From NCBI GenBank assembly GCA_041576165.1, contig JBFGLM010000006.1:32001-96000 (forward strand): a stretch of DNA of 64,000 nt, in the 5' to 3' direction. Below, one piece after another: positions 45,953 through 50,548 of the stretch. This stretch comes from Acidimicrobiia bacterium (GTDB lineage: Bacteria; Actinomycetota; Acidimicrobiia; Spongiisociales; Spongiisociaceae). The position numbers were made by a program, and so were the translations under genes. Below the pieces are notes generated by a model that worked only from the letters and a program-made list of their open reading frames with translations, was not told where the DNA came from and ran no database searches. The first letter of the stretch is position 1. Each line of letters begins with the position of its first letter.

Positions 45953-46108
45953 TACCCAACGAGGGGCCGCATATGTGTGCGGCCCCATGGTGTTGGCGGC
46001 ATCCCCCACGAGCGGCCGGTTGCCCGTCCGCTCGCCGGCTGCCTCTGTATACGACGCAGCGTCCCCGGCTGGATGATCTATCTCCCGAGACTCGCGATAC
46101 TGCCGCCG

Positions 46109-47293
46109 GTGCTGGGGAGATTCGCCACCTCGATCATCGTGCTGATCGCGGCAACGGCCGTTGCCGTCCCGTCGGGCGCGCTGGGAGATCTCCCGCCAGG
46201 CGGGACCTTTGCGGACGACGACGGGAGCGTGCACGAAGGAGCGATCGAGGCCCTGACGGCTGCCGGTATCTCCTCAGGGTGCGGACCGGAGCGATTCTGC
46301 CCGGCCCGGCTCTTGACTCGGTCCGAGATGGCCGCCTTCCTGGCGCGGGCCCTGGCTCTACCCCCCAGCTCCAACGATTGGTTTGCCGACGACAACGACC
46401 ACCTCTTCGAAACAGAGATCAACAGCATCTCCGCCGCTTCCGTCACCCAAGGGTGCAATCCGGGCATGTTCTGCCCGGATGAAACGATGAGCCGGGGGCA
46501 AATGGCATCTTTCCTCGCTCGAGCCTTCGCCATCCCGGCGACTGATATCGACGCCTTCAGCGACGACACGGGTTCGGTGCATGAAGCATCCATCAACGCA
46601 ATCGCCGCCGCCGGCATAACGACCGGGTGCGACGATGGCCGGTACTGCCCGCTCGAGCGCGTTCGGCGCGATCAGATGGCGTCGTTGCTGGTACGGGCGA
46701 TGCGCCTCGAGTTGATCGTGCCTCCGCCGCGAGCCCCCCAGCTGTGTCGTACTGCCGACCCGGCTTCGCCGACCGGCACGTTTACGACTGCCGCCGGCGG
46801 GCATCCTCCGTCGCCCGGCGGTGGAACCATCTGGCGCTACGCGGTGCAGGTCGAAGTGGGGCTGGGTATCGATCCGAACTGCGTAGCGGCCTCGGTGGCA
46901 ATGGTGCTGGCCGACGAAGCTCGCGGCTGGGGCAGCAGCGGTGCCCGATCGTTCGAACGAGTCGATCCGGCCGCAGCCGACTTCATCGTGACGCTGGCGT
47001 TCCCGTCCACCACCGACCAGCTGTGCCATCCGATCCGAACCGGCGGGATCTATAGCTGCTGGAGTGGTCGCCAGGCGGTGCTGAACTCGTGGCGATGGGA
47101 GGCGGGCGCCGCCGCCTACGCCGAGGTCGATCAGTACCGGATCTACCTGATCGGTCACGAGGTGGGACACGCGCTCGGATTTGGTCACCGGAGTTGTCCG
47201 GGAGCCGGTCAACCGAGCCCCGTGATGATGCAACAAACGAAGTCGGTCGGCTCCTGCACGCCCGATCCCTGGCCCGAGTCATACGAGCTCTAG
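46109..47293 (+). CDS. S-layer homology (SLH) domain protein with DUF3152-like zinc metalloprotease domain
   Basis: Three SLH-like repeats (FCP...TRSEMAAFLARA); C-terminus HEVGHALGFGH...PVMMQQT. Confidence 0.88.
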   Translation: MLGRFATSIIVLIAATAVAVPSGALGDLPPGGTFADDDGSVHEGAIEALTAAGISSGCGPERFCPARLLTRSEMAAFLARALALPPSSNDWFADDNDHLFETEINSISAASVTQGCNPGMFCPDETMSRGQMASFLARAFAIPATDIDAFSDDTGSVHEASINAIAAAGITTGCDDGRYCPLERVRRDQMASLLVRAMRLELIVPPPRAPQLCRTADPASPTGTFTTAAGGHPPSPGGGTIWRYAVQVEVGLGIDPNCVAASVAMVLADEARGWGSSGARSFERVDPAAADFIVTLAFPSTTDQLCHPIRTGGIYSCWSGRQAVLNSWRWEAGAAAYAEVDQYRIYLIGHEVGHALGFGHRSCPGAGQPSPVMMQQTKSVGSCTPDPWPESYEL

Positions 47294-47369
47294 CCCGTTA
47301 CCGCCGTCCCGGCGTCGGAATCCGCCCGGGGGGTGCAGCCAGGTTGGATAGGCCGGACCCGGCCCGGTC

Positions 47370-47681
47370 CTAGTGACGTCAGGAGGGCTGGTGCTTGTGA
47401 TTCACCTCGACTCTGAGCGCCCGCCACAGGACACGATTCTTTGTCACGACATGCGCCGACGACGCCCAGCTCATCAAGCTCGGAGCGACGAGAAACCGTA
47501 CGTCGTCGATCAGGACCCGCTTGTAGGGCCGGATGTTCTTTCCCTTCAGGTGGGTGTCGACCGACACCTCGGCTTTGCCACCTCACGAGATGGGTGGGAT
47601 GAAATCCAATGCGACGGTTCCGCCGCGCCGGCGGGCCAGCTCGAGGGCTTCCTCGTCTGCCGTAACTGTGAAGTTCAGCAC
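47370..47681 (-). CDS. Candidate selenoprotein with two in-frame TGA (Sec33, Sec101), HesB/CC-Se-like
   Basis: GTG 47681 to TAG 47370 in one frame: MLNFTVTADEEALELARRRGGTVALDFIPPIS-U-GGKAEVSVDTHLKGKNIRPYKRVLIDDVRFLVAPSLMSWASSAHVVTKNRVLWRALRVEVNHKHQPS-U-RH. A hairpin follows each TGA. Confidence 0.72.
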
Positions 47682-47690
47682 CAGCTGAAG

Positions 47691-48965
47691 CTACTGGATC
47701 GGCGGAGATATCCCCTCTGACACCGCAGCCGATGGAGCCAGCACCCGGCGATAGCGCAGCCGCAGGCTCATCACCGCGACCGCAGCGGCTGCGCCGGCCA
47801 GCGCCAGGACGGAGAAGCTCTGCCAGTCGAGGATGACGCCCGAGGCCACGGCCGCCACCGCTCCCGAGATCCACGTCACGGCGTCGGCAACTCCCTGCAG
47901 CCGTACTCGGGTACTCCCGGTCGCGGCGTCGGTCACCAGTGCGCTGGCCGCAACGAAACCGAAGTTCCACCCGACCCCCAGCAGGAACAGCGAACCCATC
48001 AGGAGCGCTCGGTCCCCACCGCCTGCCGGGGCCGCCAGCAGCGCCGCCACCACAAGCAGAATCTGGCCCGTCACGATGATCGGTACCTTGCCGTACCGGT
48101 CCGACAGCCAGCCCGTCACGGGGGAGAAGAAGAACATGCCGAAGGTATGCGCCCCGATGACCAGACCGACCAGCGTCAGGTTCTCTCCCGCGTCCCGGAT
48201 GTGGATCGGGGTCATCGCCATGATCAGCACCATCACGAATTGCCCGACGCTCAGCGCAGCTAGGGCGTAGCGAACGACCGGAGTCCGCACGGTCGGGCCG
48301 AGCGGCATGCGGTGCGACTGGGTCGGTCCGGTGGGATCGGGATCTTCGGTGAACGTCAGCGGATCGGGTCGCAGCAGGAGACCGAGTATCAGCGCTGCGC
48401 CTCCCACCAGAATCGCCGCCACCAGCAGACCGCCTGCCAACGCTGGGAAGGCCAGCGTCTTGGCCAACCGCTCGGCAGGCGCCAGCAGCAGCGGCCCCGC
48501 AACCGAGCCCACCGTTCCCGCCCAGACGATCGCAGAGATGGCCGATGCTCGCATGTGGGCCGGGGCCACGTCGGCGGCGGCATATCGGCTCAGCCGATCG
48601 CCCGACGCGCCGAGACCGAAGAGAAAGAAGCCGGCCAGCAACAGCGGAAAGACCCCGACCCGCACTGCCACGGCTCCGGTCAGCATCCCAGCGGACGCAA
48701 CGCTCAACGACAATCCGAAACCGGGGCGCCGGCCACGGCGTGCCATGAACGCGGCCAGGGGCGCGACGCCTGCCGCAAGACCGAAAGTCGCCAGCGCGGC
48801 GGGTATCCCGCTCCAGCGAGCGGCTCCCAGCATTTCCGCCGCAGCCAGCGGCGCTACCGTCACGGCCGCGATGAACGCGGTGCGATTTATCCCGGCCGCG
48901 ACAAACAGCGTGACCAGAAGGCGTTGACGGGTGTGGGGCCTGGCGACGGTGTCGGTCACCGGCAC
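47691..48965 (-). CDS. MFS transporter
   Basis: About 12 hydrophobic helices; MARRGRRPG and GWLSDRYGK loops. Confidence 0.9.
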   Translation of the reverse strand: MPVTDTVARPHTRQRLLVTLFVAAGINRTAFIAAVTVAPLAAAEMLGAARWSGIPAALATFGLAAGVAPLAAFMARRGRRPGFGLSLSVASAGMLTGAVAVRVGVFPLLLAGFFLFGLGASGDRLSRYAAADVAPAHMRASAISAIVWAGTVGSVAGPLLLAPAERLAKTLAFPALAGGLLVAAILVGGAALILGLLLRPDPLTFTEDPDPTGPTQSHRMPLGPTVRTPVVRYALAALSVGQFVMVLIMAMTPIHIRDAGENLTLVGLVIGAHTFGMFFFSPVTGWLSDRYGKVPIIVTGQILLVVAALLAAPAGGGDRALLMGSLFLLGVGWNFGFVAASALVTDAATGSTRVRLQGVADAVTWISGAVAAVASGVILDWQSFSVLALAGAAAAVAVMSLRLRYRRVLAPSAAVSEGISPPIQ

Positions 48966-49019
48966 CAGTGTACGGCCATCGTACCCGCCCGCTGTCGTCT
49001 CCGATCCCGGCCGCCGGCG

Positions 49020-49703
49020 CTAGCCGATGCGGCGTTTCCAGCCCAGCTTGGGATGAATACCCCGCGGCGGCCAGTAGCCGTCGTTGCGATACGCCCAGTA
49101 CTCAAAGGGGTTGTCGTAGTAGGCGACCGTTTCGATGGCGTTGAACAGGCGACCTCTCACCACGGGCCACAGCATGAGACCGACGATGCCGCCCATCACC
49201 AGCCATCCGCCGTATGTGATGTGAAACAGAGGACCGAACCAGCGGTTTTGCCAGATGTGCAGCTCCTCGTGGGCCGTGACGAACCGGCGGCGTCTGCGCG
49301 CTCGCTCCGACTCCCCTTTCAGCCCCACCTTGCCGCCCGCGTTGGAGATGACGTTGCCCATCGACAGCGCGAACCCGCCCCGCAGCGACGCGCCGGCGGC
49401 GTAGACGTGGCGGCACCGTCGCCGGCTGAGCGACTCGACATAGCCAGATCCCGGCCACACAACATTGACGGCATGGAGGGCCAAACCCAGCGCCGTCCCG
49501 ACGAGTCCCCATGTGGAGTCGAGGATCGCGGCCGTCCAGCCCCGCCTGCTTCGCCAGTCGTAGATCCCCGCGAACCCGGACACCACCCCGTTGAGCGAGC
49601 CGAGCAAGAACCCCAACGCGGGCAACCCCACCAGCGATCCGGTGGCCCAACCAGCGACCCCACCACCGGCACCCACCGCGAGGGCCTCGACCACCCGCCG
49701 CAT
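49020..49703 (-). CDS. Membrane protein with Gly-rich N-terminal helices and HEELH zincin-like motif
   Basis: ATG 49703 overlaps the upstream stop; FVTAHEELHIWQNRWFG...YYDNPFEYWAY. Confidence 0.75.
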   Translation of the reverse strand: MRRVVEALAVGAGGGVAGWATGSLVGLPALGFLLGSLNGVVSGFAGIYDWRSRRGWTAAILDSTWGLVGTALGLALHAVNVVWPGSGYVESLSRRRCRHVYAAGASLRGGFALSMGNVISNAGGKVGLKGESERARRRRRFVTAHEELHIWQNRWFGPLFHITYGGWLVMGGIVGLMLWPVVRGRLFNAIETVAYYDNPFEYWAYRNDGYWPPRGIHPKLGWKRRIG

Positions 49704-50548
49704 CAGAGGATGAATCCCTTGTGGAACAGCGCCAGGCCGTCCATGGTCGCCGCCACCGCGCAGTGCAGCGCCGCCCCCCACCAGATCGATCTGGTCTTGA
49801 GGGAGAGGGACCCCAGCACGTATCCGCCAACGATCGCCGCCAGTGCCTCGGCCACCGGCTTGGTGTAGTGGAGCATGTTGTAGGGAACGATCATCACGAA
49901 CACCGCCATGAACCCCAGGCGTCCTTTCAGCCCGTGCACCAGAAAGCCGCGAAAGAAGAACTCCAACGCCACGAACTGAGCGGCATAGACCACCCACCAG
50001 ATCCACATGTTGGGCCAGAGGTCTTCGCCCGGGGCCAGGTCATAGAAGGGATATTTCGCCTGGAACGCCGCCGTGGTGGACGCCACCACGATGAAGGGGA
50101 GCGAGACCGCAAACAACACCAGATATGTGCGGGCCTGGGGGAGGATCCCCCGAACGGTGGTGCCGAACGCACTGATTTGCTCCCTGAGAACGAAGCGAAT
50201 GACCAGCCAGGGGATCGCCACATAACTCAACACCTGGACGATGCCCCAAAACGCAAGCCCGTTGAGCTCCCGATTGGCCGACTCGAAGAAGGCGCGTCGG
50301 CTGGCGGCCGCCAGCCCGTCCAACCCCAACGCGTCGACCATGCCTATGAACCAGAACGGCCGGCTGGTCGCCCCGAAGTTGAGGGCGGTGAGTGCGACCG
50401 CCGCAGTGACGAGAATTATGGCGACCCGCCGGTTCGCCTCGGCCGGCGGGACCGACGCCCGGTACTGGTCGGACTCGGCATCCGTGCGGTCCGCCAGGTC
50501 CCTGAAAAAGCCCCGTCGAGAACGCACAGGCACGGTGTCCGCGGTCAT
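49703..50548 (-). CDS. CPBP family intramembrane glutamic endopeptidase (CAAX protease-like)
   Basis: LEFFFRG, HYTKP..E, SIWWGAALH. Confidence 0.9.
   Translation of the reverse strand: MTADTVPVRSRRGFFRDLADRTDAESDQYRASVPPAEANRRVAIILVTAAVALTALNFGATSRPFWFIGMVDALGLDGLAAASRRAFFESANRELNGLAFWGIVQVLSYVAIPWLVIRFVLREQISAFGTTVRGILPQARTYLVLFAVSLPFIVVASTTAAFQAKYPFYDLAPGEDLWPNMWIWWVVYAAQFVALEFFFRGFLVHGLKGRLGFMAVFVMIVPYNMLHYTKPVAEALAAIVGGYVLGSLSLKTRSIWWGAALHCAVAATMDGLALFHKGFIL

What the first reader, a model, noticed from the sequence alone, without database searches (positions are those of the whole stretch)
47370..47681. Hidden gene with two in-frame TGA codons: candidate double-selenocysteine HesB/CC-Se-like protein
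Seen: the ORF track gives only a 62-aa middle fragment (47379-47567). The same frame extends both ways through TGA to a coherent 103-aa product that fills the gap between its neighbours: GTG 47681, TGA at codon 33 (47583-47585, context FIPPIS-U-GG), TGA at codon 101 (47379-47381, context HKHQPS-U-RH), TAG at 47370. A TAGCTT -10-like hexamer ends 6 nt before the GTG, consistent with a leaderless start. Known: bacteria recode UGA as Sec using a SECIS immediately 3'. HesB-like/CC-Se selenoproteins have an N-terminal strand-helix-strand followed by x-U-G-G near residue 30-35, which matches site 1. TGA is a normal stop in clpC, topA and others here, so this is not a genetic-code change. Inference: a small redox or metal-handling protein with a second Sec in a His-rich C-terminal HxHxxxUxH motif. 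I do not recognise this arrangement from described families. selA/selB/selC/selD are not in this window.
Basis: partly seen in the sequence, partly recalled or inferred. Interest (0 to 1): 0.9.

Follow-up and report, generated by a model that had tools for sequence, protein, structure and literature searches.

The report
Small protein with two selenocysteines
A gene that standard gene finders cut into pieces encodes a 103-residue protein with two selenocysteines, shaped like an iron-sulfur carrier protein, and it belongs to an unannotated branch of a known selenoprotein family common in uncultured marine Acidimicrobiia.

Summary
The minus-strand frame 47681-47370 reads through two TGA codons (33 and 101) to give a 103-aa product. 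Both TGAs are kept in 8 of 8 homologues found among 60 related genomes and in 20 distinct Acidimicrobiia MAG loci. More distant homologues have Cys at each position. Each TGA is followed 17-22 nt later by a hairpin with a GGU(C)-type loop. The first hairpin is invariant at nucleotide level and is lost wherever Cys replaces Sec. The second covaries and lies wholly behind the stop codon. The genome holds tRNA-Sec, selA, selB and selD.

The predicted fold is SufA/IscA (HesB)-like (Z 10.1). Profile comparison ties the family to NCBIfam NF041239, the CC/Se motif family (probability 99%). All 18 members tested score below that model's cut-off, so public collections hold only truncated fragments.

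I read it as a real double selenoprotein. Sec33 sits at the first cluster-ligand position of IscA. The tail HxHxPT-U-x-H-stop replaces the IscA CxC motif. Metal or cluster binding is inferred, not shown. It is a new variant of a known kind.

The parts
47370..47681 (-). Coding sequence of the 103-aa double selenoprotein (GTG start, Sec33, Sec101, TAG stop at 47372-47370)
   Evidence: Translation. The N-terminus and both ends align with homologues.
47583..47585 (-). TGA codon 33, read as selenocysteine (site 1)
   Evidence: TGA in 15 of 18 aligned family members and Cys in 3. It aligns with the first ligand Cys of IscA and with the first C of the CC motif of NF041239 members.
47553..47568 (-). 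SECIS 1: hairpin GGUGUC-GGUC-GACACC, loop 20 nt after the TGA; it encodes part of E-V-S-V-D-T
   Evidence: Invariant at nucleotide level, synonymous positions included, in 9 of 9 and 21 of 21 members. Absent in 3 of 3 members with Cys at site 1. Contigs of other organisms match only 47535-47573.
47379..47381 (-). TGA codon 101, read as selenocysteine (site 2), two codons before the stop
   Evidence: TGA-NNN-CAY-stop in 20 of 20 distinct MAG members. Cys-x-His-stop in L034, L082 and L033 and in 19 fragment clusters.
47350..47365 (-). SECIS 2: hairpin GGGCCG-GGUC-CGGCCU, loop 19 nt after TGA101, wholly in the 3' untranslated region
   Evidence: A hairpin of at least 5 bp is present in 20 of 20 double-Sec members, with covarying stems (100% paired against 57% when arms are swapped). 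There is no T-run and no terminator call here. It is absent in the Cys-site-2 members L034 and L082.
47691..48965 (-). Upstream MFS transporter gene, stop 9 nt before the selenoprotein start; probably co-transcribed
   Evidence: Pfam MFS_1. It is syntenic upstream in L023, L024 and L025 only.

Best explanation
Window 47681-47370 (minus strand) is a real gene for a 103-residue protein in which both in-frame UGA codons are recoded as selenocysteine by the bacterial SelB/SECIS mechanism. UGA33 uses a hairpin inside the coding region. UGA101 uses a hairpin that lies entirely behind the stop codon. The protein has the fold of A-type iron-sulfur carriers (IscA/SufA/HesB). It is a distant, so far unannotated clade of the CC/Se motif (seleno)protein superfamily (NCBIfam NF041239). 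Sec33 occupies the position of the first cluster-ligand Cys of IscA. The flexible C-terminal tail H95-x-H97-x-P-T/S-U101-x-H103-stop stands where IscA has its Cys-x-Cys ligands. The following step is inferred, not shown: the two Sec residues and the three invariant His form one site that binds a metal ion or an Fe-S-type cluster, or another selenophilic ligand, probably between the subunits of a dimer as in IscA. Shown here: gene, recoding signals, Sec/Cys pairing, Sec machinery, fold and family relationship. Inferred: what the site binds and what the protein delivers.
For: Conservation. 8 of 8 homologues in 60 relatives have both TGAs. 20 distinct double-Sec loci were found in MAG records, 17 of 21 loci titled Acidimicrobiia or Acidimicrobiaceae. 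There are 32 invariant residues on both sides of both TGAs.

Sec/Cys pairs. Site 1 is Cys in L035, L036 and L041. Site 2 is Cys in L034, L082 and L033. A natural Cys/Cys form exists, P0007.

SECIS. A pattern of at least 5 bp stem with a GGU loop 16-24 nt after the TGA follows 15 of 15 site-1 TGAs and 8 of 9 site-2 TGAs. It follows 0 of 11 terminal TGA stops and 0 of the Cys codons tested. It follows 621 of 131,966 (0.47%) of all TGA triplets in the genome. Site-2 stems covary.

Machinery. tRNA-Sec (79.9 and 72.9 bits, anticodon TCA), selA, selB and selD were found.

Sequence integrity. Both TGAs are intact in contigs of three further runs.

Fold. AlphaFold mean pLDDT is 87.9. The Foldseek top nine are SufA, IscA or HesB-like (best E 1.4e-4, TM 0.68). 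VIA-align gives Z 10.1 to SufA (rmsd 2.5 over 88 residues) and Z 9.8 to IscA.

Profiles. Comparison with IscA genes of relatives gives probability 64%, E 6.6e-5, with site 1 aligned on the GGCSG Cys. Comparison with CC/Se members gives probability 99%, E 3e-18.

Annotation gap. Of 148 library hits, 29 are N-terminal pieces that end just before site 1 and 98 are pieces that start just after it.
Against: There is no direct evidence of selenium insertion or of expression; no RNA run was listed. Site 2 lies two codons before the stop, so termination at UGA101 would give a nearly identical 100-aa product, and both products may be made. One double-Sec member (L023/L070) has a GGG loop rather than a GGU loop at site 2. 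For two others my simple hairpin finder picked a different hairpin, 25 and 28 nt away. G039 carries the gene and a tRNA-Sec, but selA and selB were not found in its assembly, which is 98% complete. The window's genome is a MAG with 7.5% contamination and holds two sets of selA, selB and selC. The link to IscA at sequence level is weak (64%). No member hits PF01521 or TIGR01911, and CC/Se members alone do not match IscA. Gene neighbours give no functional clue and no suf/isc context. The model was built with Cys in place of Sec, and its last 3 residues have pLDDT 58.
Confidence: 0.8

Rival explanations
1. It is a single selenoprotein. Only UGA33 is recoded. UGA101 is the working stop codon, and the hairpin behind it is a transcription terminator or stabiliser. 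The protein then ends ...HKHQPS.
For: The site-2 hairpin sits just after the gene end, where terminators sit. Sec insertion always competes with release factor 2. In public collections 16 fragment clusters end exactly there as called by gene finders.
Against: The two codons after TGA101 and the stop that follows are kept in frame in 20 of 20 members. His is always encoded, by both CAC and CAT, and all three stop codons are used. Homologues with Cys end C-x-H-stop. The loop lies 17-22 nt from the TGA in 18 of 20. The hairpin has no T-run and was not called as a terminator. It is missing in the Cys-site-2 members L034 and L082.
Confidence: 0.1
2. The gene and both Sec residues are as in the best explanation, but the site is a redox pair. 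Sec33 and Sec101 would form a diselenide (a selenenylsulfide or disulfide in the Cys forms) and act as a low-potential thiol/selenol oxidoreductase or a selenium/sulfur relay, not as a metal or cluster carrier.
For: According to the review PMC13188914 (passages), most uncharacterised prokaryotic selenoproteins are thought to be redox proteins. Both positions swap between Sec and Cys. NF041239 members carry an adjacent CC at site 1 and no C-terminal ligand, which fits a redox pair as well as a metal site.
Against: Three invariant His surround site 2 (H95, H97, H103), which a simple redox pair does not need. The fold matches are all Fe-S carrier proteins or their relatives. No thioredoxin-like fold or CxxC/UxxC motif is present.
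Confidence: 0.25
3. It is not a selenoprotein. It is a decaying pseudogene, a chance open frame in GC-rich DNA, or TGA is read as another residue under a changed genetic code.
For: GC-rich DNA gives many long spurious frames. The protein has no Pfam hit.
Against: There is 49-71% identity across both TGAs in 8 genomes, with both stops in register. Cys, not Trp, Gly or Arg, aligns at both sites. TGA ends 11 of the family's own genes. Hairpins are present only where TGA is present. tRNA-Sec and selA, selB and selD were found.
Confidence: 0.02

Closest known systems
[quoted passage not shown]
   Same: About 100 residues with the same full-length architecture. The profile-profile match has probability 99%, E 3e-18, over 92 columns. 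All 18 aligned members hit this model end to end. Site 1 is the same column as the first C of the family's CC motif.
   Different: Scores are 16-36 bits against a cut-off of 40, so NCBI's rule would not name these proteins. Site 1 is x-U-G rather than C-C or C-U. The window's clade adds a second Sec in an HxHxPT-U-x-H-stop tail, which the named members P0151 and P0171 lack.
A-type Fe-S carrier proteins IscA, SufA, ErpA and HesB (Pfam PF01521; PDB 2d2a, 1x0g, 1s98, 1r94)
   Same: Same fold: Z 10.1 and 9.8, TM 0.6-0.68. Similar length. The Sec/Cys of site 1 aligns with the first ligand Cys (GGCSG). A second ligand-bearing flexible tail lies at the extreme C-terminus.
   Different: No HMM match to PF01521 at E up to 10. 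The C-terminal C-x-C is replaced by U-x-H, preceded by H-x-H. There is no isc or suf gene context. The genome also has an ordinary PF01521 gene elsewhere, at G000:C24:50198-50506.
HesB-like selenoprotein, TIGR01911 (motif UxGP, 1 Sec, per the table in PMC13188914; counts in PMC1794560)
   Same: A HesB/IscA-fold protein with Sec at the first ligand position.
   Different: No match to TIGR01911 in any of 18 members at E up to 10. The motif here is U-G-G/K, not UxGP. It has two Sec residues instead of one.
'UXX-star' and double selenoproteins of Haft and Tolstoy 2025 (NF041114, NF041211, NF041212, NF047649 and NF045648 as listed in PMC13188914)
   Same: Sec is the third residue from the end, so the SECIS must lie behind the stop codon. 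There are two Sec residues in a small protein. A metal-ligand role is suspected.
   Different: No match to any of those models in the NCBIfam scan. The fold and family are different. I could not read the original paper, which is not held, so I know these families only from the review's table.

Membership tests
Bacterial selenoprotein gene (UGA recoded by SelB/SECIS) | In-frame TGA conserved in register in orthologues, with conservation on both sides | tested here: met
   8 of 8 homologues in 60 relatives. 20 distinct MAG loci. Invariant residues flank both TGAs.
Bacterial selenoprotein gene (UGA recoded by SelB/SECIS) | Homologues with Cys aligned to the TGA | tested here: met
   Site 1 is Cys in L035, L036, L041 and P0004-P0010. 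Site 2 is Cys in L034, L082, L033 and 19 fragment clusters.
Bacterial selenoprotein gene (UGA recoded by SelB/SECIS) | Stem-loop with G/U in the apical loop at a fixed short distance 3' of the UGA | tested here: met
   15 of 15 at site 1 and 8 of 9 at site 2 by a fixed pattern, against 0.47% of genome TGAs. 20 of 20 have a hairpin at site 2, with covariation. bSECISearch itself was not available.
Bacterial selenoprotein gene (UGA recoded by SelB/SECIS) | tRNA-Sec, SelA, SelB and SelD in the genome | tested here: met
   all over the curated cut-offs. Caveat: the genome is a MAG with 7.5% contamination. selA is over the cut-off in 57 of 61 genomes of the order.
Bacterial selenoprotein gene (UGA recoded by SelB/SECIS) | Selenium demonstrated in the protein | not testable with these tools
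   Needs 75Se labelling or mass spectrometry.
CC/Se motif family, NCBIfam NF041239 | Score at or above the curated cut-off (40 bits) | tested here: not met
   The window protein scores 18.4 bits. 18 of 18 relatives score below 40, best 35.6.
CC/Se motif family, NCBIfam NF041239 | Common descent and full-length architecture | tested here: met
   hhalign probability 99%, E 3e-18, 92 columns. HMM matches span positions 1-89 of 91.
CC/Se motif family, NCBIfam NF041239 | Adjacent C-C or C-Sec dipeptide at site 1 (read from named members P0151 and P0171 and the family name) | tested here: not met
   The window has S-U-G. Named members have N-C-C-A or G-C-C-G.
IscA/HesB A-type carriers (PF01521) and HesB-like selenoprotein (TIGR01911) | HMM match to PF01521 or TIGR01911 | tested here: not met
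   No hit at E up to 10 in 18 of 18 members.
IscA/HesB A-type carriers (PF01521) and HesB-like selenoprotein (TIGR01911) | The IscA fold | tested here: met
   The Foldseek top nine are all of this family. VIA-align gives Z 10.1, 9.8, 8.9, 8.8 and 8.1.
IscA/HesB A-type carriers (PF01521) and HesB-like selenoprotein (TIGR01911) | Three ligand Cys: one after strand 2 and C-x-C at the C-terminus | tested here: inconclusive
   The first ligand aligns with Sec33 at 64% probability. The C-terminal C-x-C lies outside the aligned columns. Here that place holds U-x-H after H-x-H.
UXX-star selenoprotein families (NF041114, NF041211) | Sec followed by two residues and the stop | tested here: met
   U-R-H-TAG in the window. 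U-x-H-stop in 20 of 20.
UXX-star selenoprotein families (NF041114, NF041211) | HMM match to those models | tested here: not met
   They do not appear among the NCBIfam hits at E up to 10.

The most novel reading that the evidence does not exclude
This is an IscA-fold 'seleno-carrier'. Its binding site would be built from two selenolates and three imidazoles (Sec33, Sec101, His95, His97, His103) in place of the three thiolates of A-type carriers. That would give marine Acidimicrobiia either a cluster or metal chaperone with selenium ligands or a dedicated selenium/selenide relay. Natural Sec/Sec, Sec/Cys and Cys/Cys forms exist side by side, which would make ligand-by-ligand comparison possible. 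The first SECIS is so constrained that it fixes the peptide E-V-S-V-D-T across classes of Actinomycetota.
Probability: 0.35. Interest if true: 0.8.

Novelty: new variant of a known kind. Interest (0 to 1): 0.62.

Why it matters
The family is common in uncultured marine and sediment Acidimicrobiia, yet it is invisible in annotation. In a library of 1.84 billion representative proteins it appears almost only as 29-residue heads and 62-70-residue tails cut at the TGAs. NCBI's nearest model misses every member tested. Recognising it would add a double-Sec clade to the selenoprotein catalogue. It would link the CC/Se family to the IscA/HesB fold. It would provide another clean natural example of a bacterial SECIS that works from behind the stop codon. 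The natural Sec/Sec, Sec/Cys and Cys/Cys series would allow a test of what selenium ligands do in a carrier-type metal site.

Tried and rejected
Pseudogene, chance frame and changed genetic code were rejected.

Leaderless start: no promoter-like site was found in 47200-49200. The upstream sequences of homologues are not conserved. An MFS gene ends 9 nt upstream.

Rfam: no family matched 47250-47750 at E up to 1.

PDB by sequence profile: no match at E up to 10.

Word-index protein search with the read-through protein found only two 62-aa fragments.

Gene neighbourhood as a clue to function led nowhere. MFS is upstream only in the 3 closest loci. Elsewhere the neighbours are GcvP (7 loci, divergent), adenosine deaminase, a PLP enzyme, YwiC, a CN hydrolase and an AlaX-like protein. 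In another actinobacterial clade the gene sits between rne and rplU-rpmA.

Co-occurrence with selA was not discriminating, because selA is over the cut-off in 57 of 61 genomes.

No RNA holder was listed for the stretch, so expression could not be examined.

MAFFT alignment of the site-2 region was not structure-aware. I replaced it with hairpin-anchored counting.

Haft and Tolstoy 2025 is not held. I know it only through the review's table. Supplements of all papers were closed and may list this family.

Searches for prior description: 'selenoprotein' + 'HesB-like' + 'bacteria', 'UXX-star' and 'selenoprotein' + 'Acidimicrobiia'. Passages were read in PMC13188914, PMC1794560, PMC12013277, PMC2398784 and bioRxiv 10.64898/2026.04.03.716425. 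None describes this clade.

Full report
**What is there.** On the minus strand, the frame that starts at GTG 47681 runs to TAG 47372-47370. It passes TGA at 47585-47583 (codon 33) and TGA at 47381-47379 (codon 101). Under table 11 only the 62-aa piece 47379-47567 is listed. Its apparent GTG start lies inside the hairpin described below. An MFS transporter gene (Pfam MFS_1) ends at 47691, 9 nt upstream on the same strand.

**Is the frame real?** A six-frame search of 60 related genomes found a homologue in 8. All 8 had two in-frame TGAs at the same two places, at 49-71% identity. The own genome has one copy. Aligned, the nine proteins share 32 invariant residues spread on both sides of both TGAs. 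These include F-I/V-P-P-I-S-U-G-G, V-S-V-D-T and H-x-H-x-P-T/S-U-x-H. In every case the stop codon (TAG, TAA or TGA) follows directly after U-x-H.

A scan of one genome per species found 21 loci. 17 were titled Acidimicrobiia or Acidimicrobiaceae, 1 Actinomycetota, 1 'bacterium' and 2 Gammaproteobacteria MAGs. After removing duplicates of the window's set, there were 20 distinct double-Sec genes and one with Cys at site 2 (L082). One more locus was cut by the contig end.

Independent metagenome contigs from runs X2, X4 and X5 (two studies) carry the window's gene with both TGAs unchanged. Sequencing error is therefore excluded.

**Sec/Cys pairs.** A sample of 400 genomes of the phylum gave 12 convincing homologues (15 of 401 genomes with a match at E up to 0.01; three hits, L043-L045, are weak and look unrelated).

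- L034 has TGA at site 1 and Cys at site 2, ending EHQHGPA-C-QH-stop. L033, from an unpublished genome (G322), shows the same.
- L035, L036 and L041 have Cys at site 1.
- L037-L040 and L042 have TGA at site 1 and C-terminal CC, CxxC or a single Cys.

In the 18-row alignment A4 the site-1 column is invariant Sec/Cys, and the site-2 column is Sec/Cys in at least 90% of rows.

**Recoding signals.** After TGA33 the sequence GGUGUC-GGUC-GACACC forms a 6-bp hairpin whose loop starts 20 nt after the codon. It was identical at every nucleotide, synonymous positions included, in 9 of 9 and 21 of 21 members. The Ser codon just before the TGA switches between TCN and AGY. In the three members with Cys at site 1 the hairpin is destroyed and the peptide relaxes from EVSVDT to EAAIDT or EIAFDT.

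After TGA101 every one of 20 double-Sec genes has a hairpin of 5-8 bp. It starts a few nucleotides behind the stop codon. The loop lies 17-22 nt after the TGA in 18 of 20. The loops are GGUC (6), GGU (3) and other G-rich forms. The stems differ between species but stay paired: 100% of the five inner pairs are paired, against a mean of 57% and a maximum of 73% when arms are swapped between sequences in 1000 trials.

A fixed pattern (stem of at least 5 bp, GGU in the loop 16-24 nt after the TGA) gave these counts:

| Codons tested | With the pattern |
|---|---|
| Site-1 TGAs | 15 of 15 |
| Site-2 TGAs | 8 of 9 |
| Terminal TGA stops of family members | 0 of 11 |
| Cys codons tested | 0 |
| All TGA triplets in the genome | 621 of 131,966 (0.47%) |

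The site-2 hairpin has no T-run and was not called as a terminator. It is absent in the Cys-site-2 members L034 and L082. Single-sequence folding energies are not exceptional (z -0.5 and 0.0), so the evidence is comparative rather than thermodynamic. Rfam has no matching family.

**Machinery.** The assembly (161 contigs, 96.5% complete, 7.5% contamination) holds the following, all over the curated cut-offs:

- two tRNA-Sec genes (79.9 and 72.9 bits, anticodon TCA);
- two selA genes;
- two selB genes;
- one selD, which itself carries an in-frame TGA.

selA is over its cut-off in 57 of 61 genomes of the order. The Sec trait is therefore general there, and co-occurrence cannot discriminate.

One result counts against the reading. 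G039 has the double-TGA gene and a tRNA-Sec at the very start of a contig, but no selA or selB was found. An assembly gap is likely but not shown.

**What kind of protein?** Pfam gives nothing. NCBIfam gives one family, NF041239 'CC/Se motif family (seleno)protein'. It matches end to end but below its cut-off: 18.4 bits for the window, and 16-36 bits for all 18 members, against a cut-off of 40.

A profile search of 1.84 billion representative proteins found 148 hits:

- 29 N-terminal pieces that stop just before site 1;
- 98 pieces that start just after site 1, at the GTG inside the hairpin;
- 14 full-length forms with Cys at site 1;
- 7 others.

Of the 98 pieces, 16 end HxHxP(T/S/G) right before a stop, as expected of double-Sec genes. 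19 end HxHxxxCxH. 18 have another C-terminal Cys.

The weakest full-length hits carry CC at site 1. One of them, P0151, is named 'CC/Se motif family (seleno)protein' in RefSeq. An alignment of such proteins matches the window's family with probability 99%, E 3e-18, and site 1 falls on the first C of the CC. The actinobacterial proteins themselves are unnamed or 'hypothetical'.

**Fold.** AlphaFold2 with alignment A4, with Cys standing in for Sec, gave mean pLDDT 87.9 and pTM 0.78. The last residues score 58. The nine best Foldseek matches in the PDB are SufA, IscA, HI1723, AQ_1857, a putative Fe-S biosynthesis protein and YneR. The best is 2d2a_A with E 1.4e-4 and TM 0.68. VIA-align gives Z 10.1 to SufA (rmsd 2.5 Å over 88 residues), 9.8 to IscA with its [2Fe-2S] cluster, and 8.9 to DsrR.

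A profile of 19 ordinary PF01521 genes from relatives (A5) aligns with A4 at probability 64%, E 6.6e-5, over 84 columns. This places site 1 on the Cys of GGCSG, the first cluster ligand. The IscA C-x-C ligands lie at positions 99 and 101 of about 102. The window has U101-x-H103 of 103, preceded by H95-x-H97. CC/Se members alone do not match IscA, and no member hits PF01521 or TIGR01911. The IscA link therefore rests on fold plus one modest profile match.

**How it most likely works.** Shown here: a conserved gene, two UGA codons each with its own SECIS-like hairpin, Sec/Cys exchange at both sites, Sec machinery in the genome, an IscA-like fold, and kinship with the CC/Se family.

Inferred: SelB-bound Sec-tRNA is recruited to UGA33 by the coding-region hairpin and to UGA101 by the hairpin in the 3' untranslated region. 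The product brings Sec33 and the tail H-x-H-x-P-T-U-x-H together, as IscA brings Cys35, Cys99 and Cys101 together, to bind a metal ion or cluster. A redox-active Sec33/Sec101 pair is the main functional rival. Gene context does not help. The MFS gene is upstream only in the three closest loci, and other neighbours are unrelated housekeeping genes.

**Comparison with what is known.** The 2026 review PMC13188914 (passages read) lists 119 prokaryotic selenoprotein families or subfamilies, most with a single Sec. It lists CC/Se (NF041239) with 1 Sec and HesB-like (TIGR01911) with motif UxGP and 1 Sec. It also lists several 'UXX-star' and double selenoproteins from Haft and Tolstoy 2025. None of those models matches here.

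A 2026 preprint reports universal Sec machinery and single-Sec predictions in Actinomarina, another group of Acidimicrobiia, without describing this family. deep-Sep's nine new families do not include it.

I could not read Haft and Tolstoy 2025 or any supplements. My claim is therefore limited: this clade is not covered by NCBIfam release 20.0 and was not found in the papers searched.

**Verdict.** It is a new variant (a two-Sec, His-rich-tail clade) of a known kind (the CC/Se superfamily with HesB/IscA fold), not a new category. Its function remains inferred.

Noticed in passing
G000:C1:171385-172317 (own genome, outside the window): The genome's selD (397 bits) carries one in-frame TGA, so it is probably itself a selenoprotein.
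   Followed up: no
G000 contigs C1/C145 (tRNA-Sec) and C24/C100 (selA, selB): The MAG holds two full sets of tRNA-Sec, selA and selB. With 7.5% contamination this may mean two strains or organisms in the bin.
   Followed up: no
G000:C24:50198-50506 and selA at C24:55512-56828; likewise G001, G029, G033, G034 and G035: The ordinary IscA/PF01521 gene lies 3-6 kb from selA on the same contig in at least six genomes of the order. This may be conserved synteny or a functional link. I did not examine it.
   Followed up: no
window 47535-47573: In four metagenome runs, contigs of other organisms match only this roughly 37-nt stretch (the site-1 hairpin and its flanks) and diverge on both sides. Their loose ends again read ...IPPIS-TGA-GGx.
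   Followed up: partly
L038, L039, L040 and L042 (other Actinomycetota): Single-Sec homologues with C-terminal CC or CxxC sit between an RNase E/G-like gene and rplU-rpmA (ribosomal L21/L27-like ORFs). I recognised these neighbours by eye from the ORF translations and did not scan them.
   Followed up: no
L035, just 3' of the Cys/Cys homologue: The last codons plus the stop codon (…C-S-L-TGA and about 14 following bases) are repeated in tandem at least three times behind the gene.
   Followed up: no
window 45977-47293 (+) and 49703-50548 (-): The neighbours are a protein with an SLH domain plus DUF3152, convergent with the selenoprotein gene, and an Rce1-like CAAX protease family protein.
   Followed up: partly
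L080 and L088 (records titled Gammaproteobacteria MAGs): Two of the 21 double-Sec loci come from bins labelled Gammaproteobacteria, although their sequences group with the Acidimicrobiia ones. Mis-binning or mislabelling is likely.
   Followed up: no
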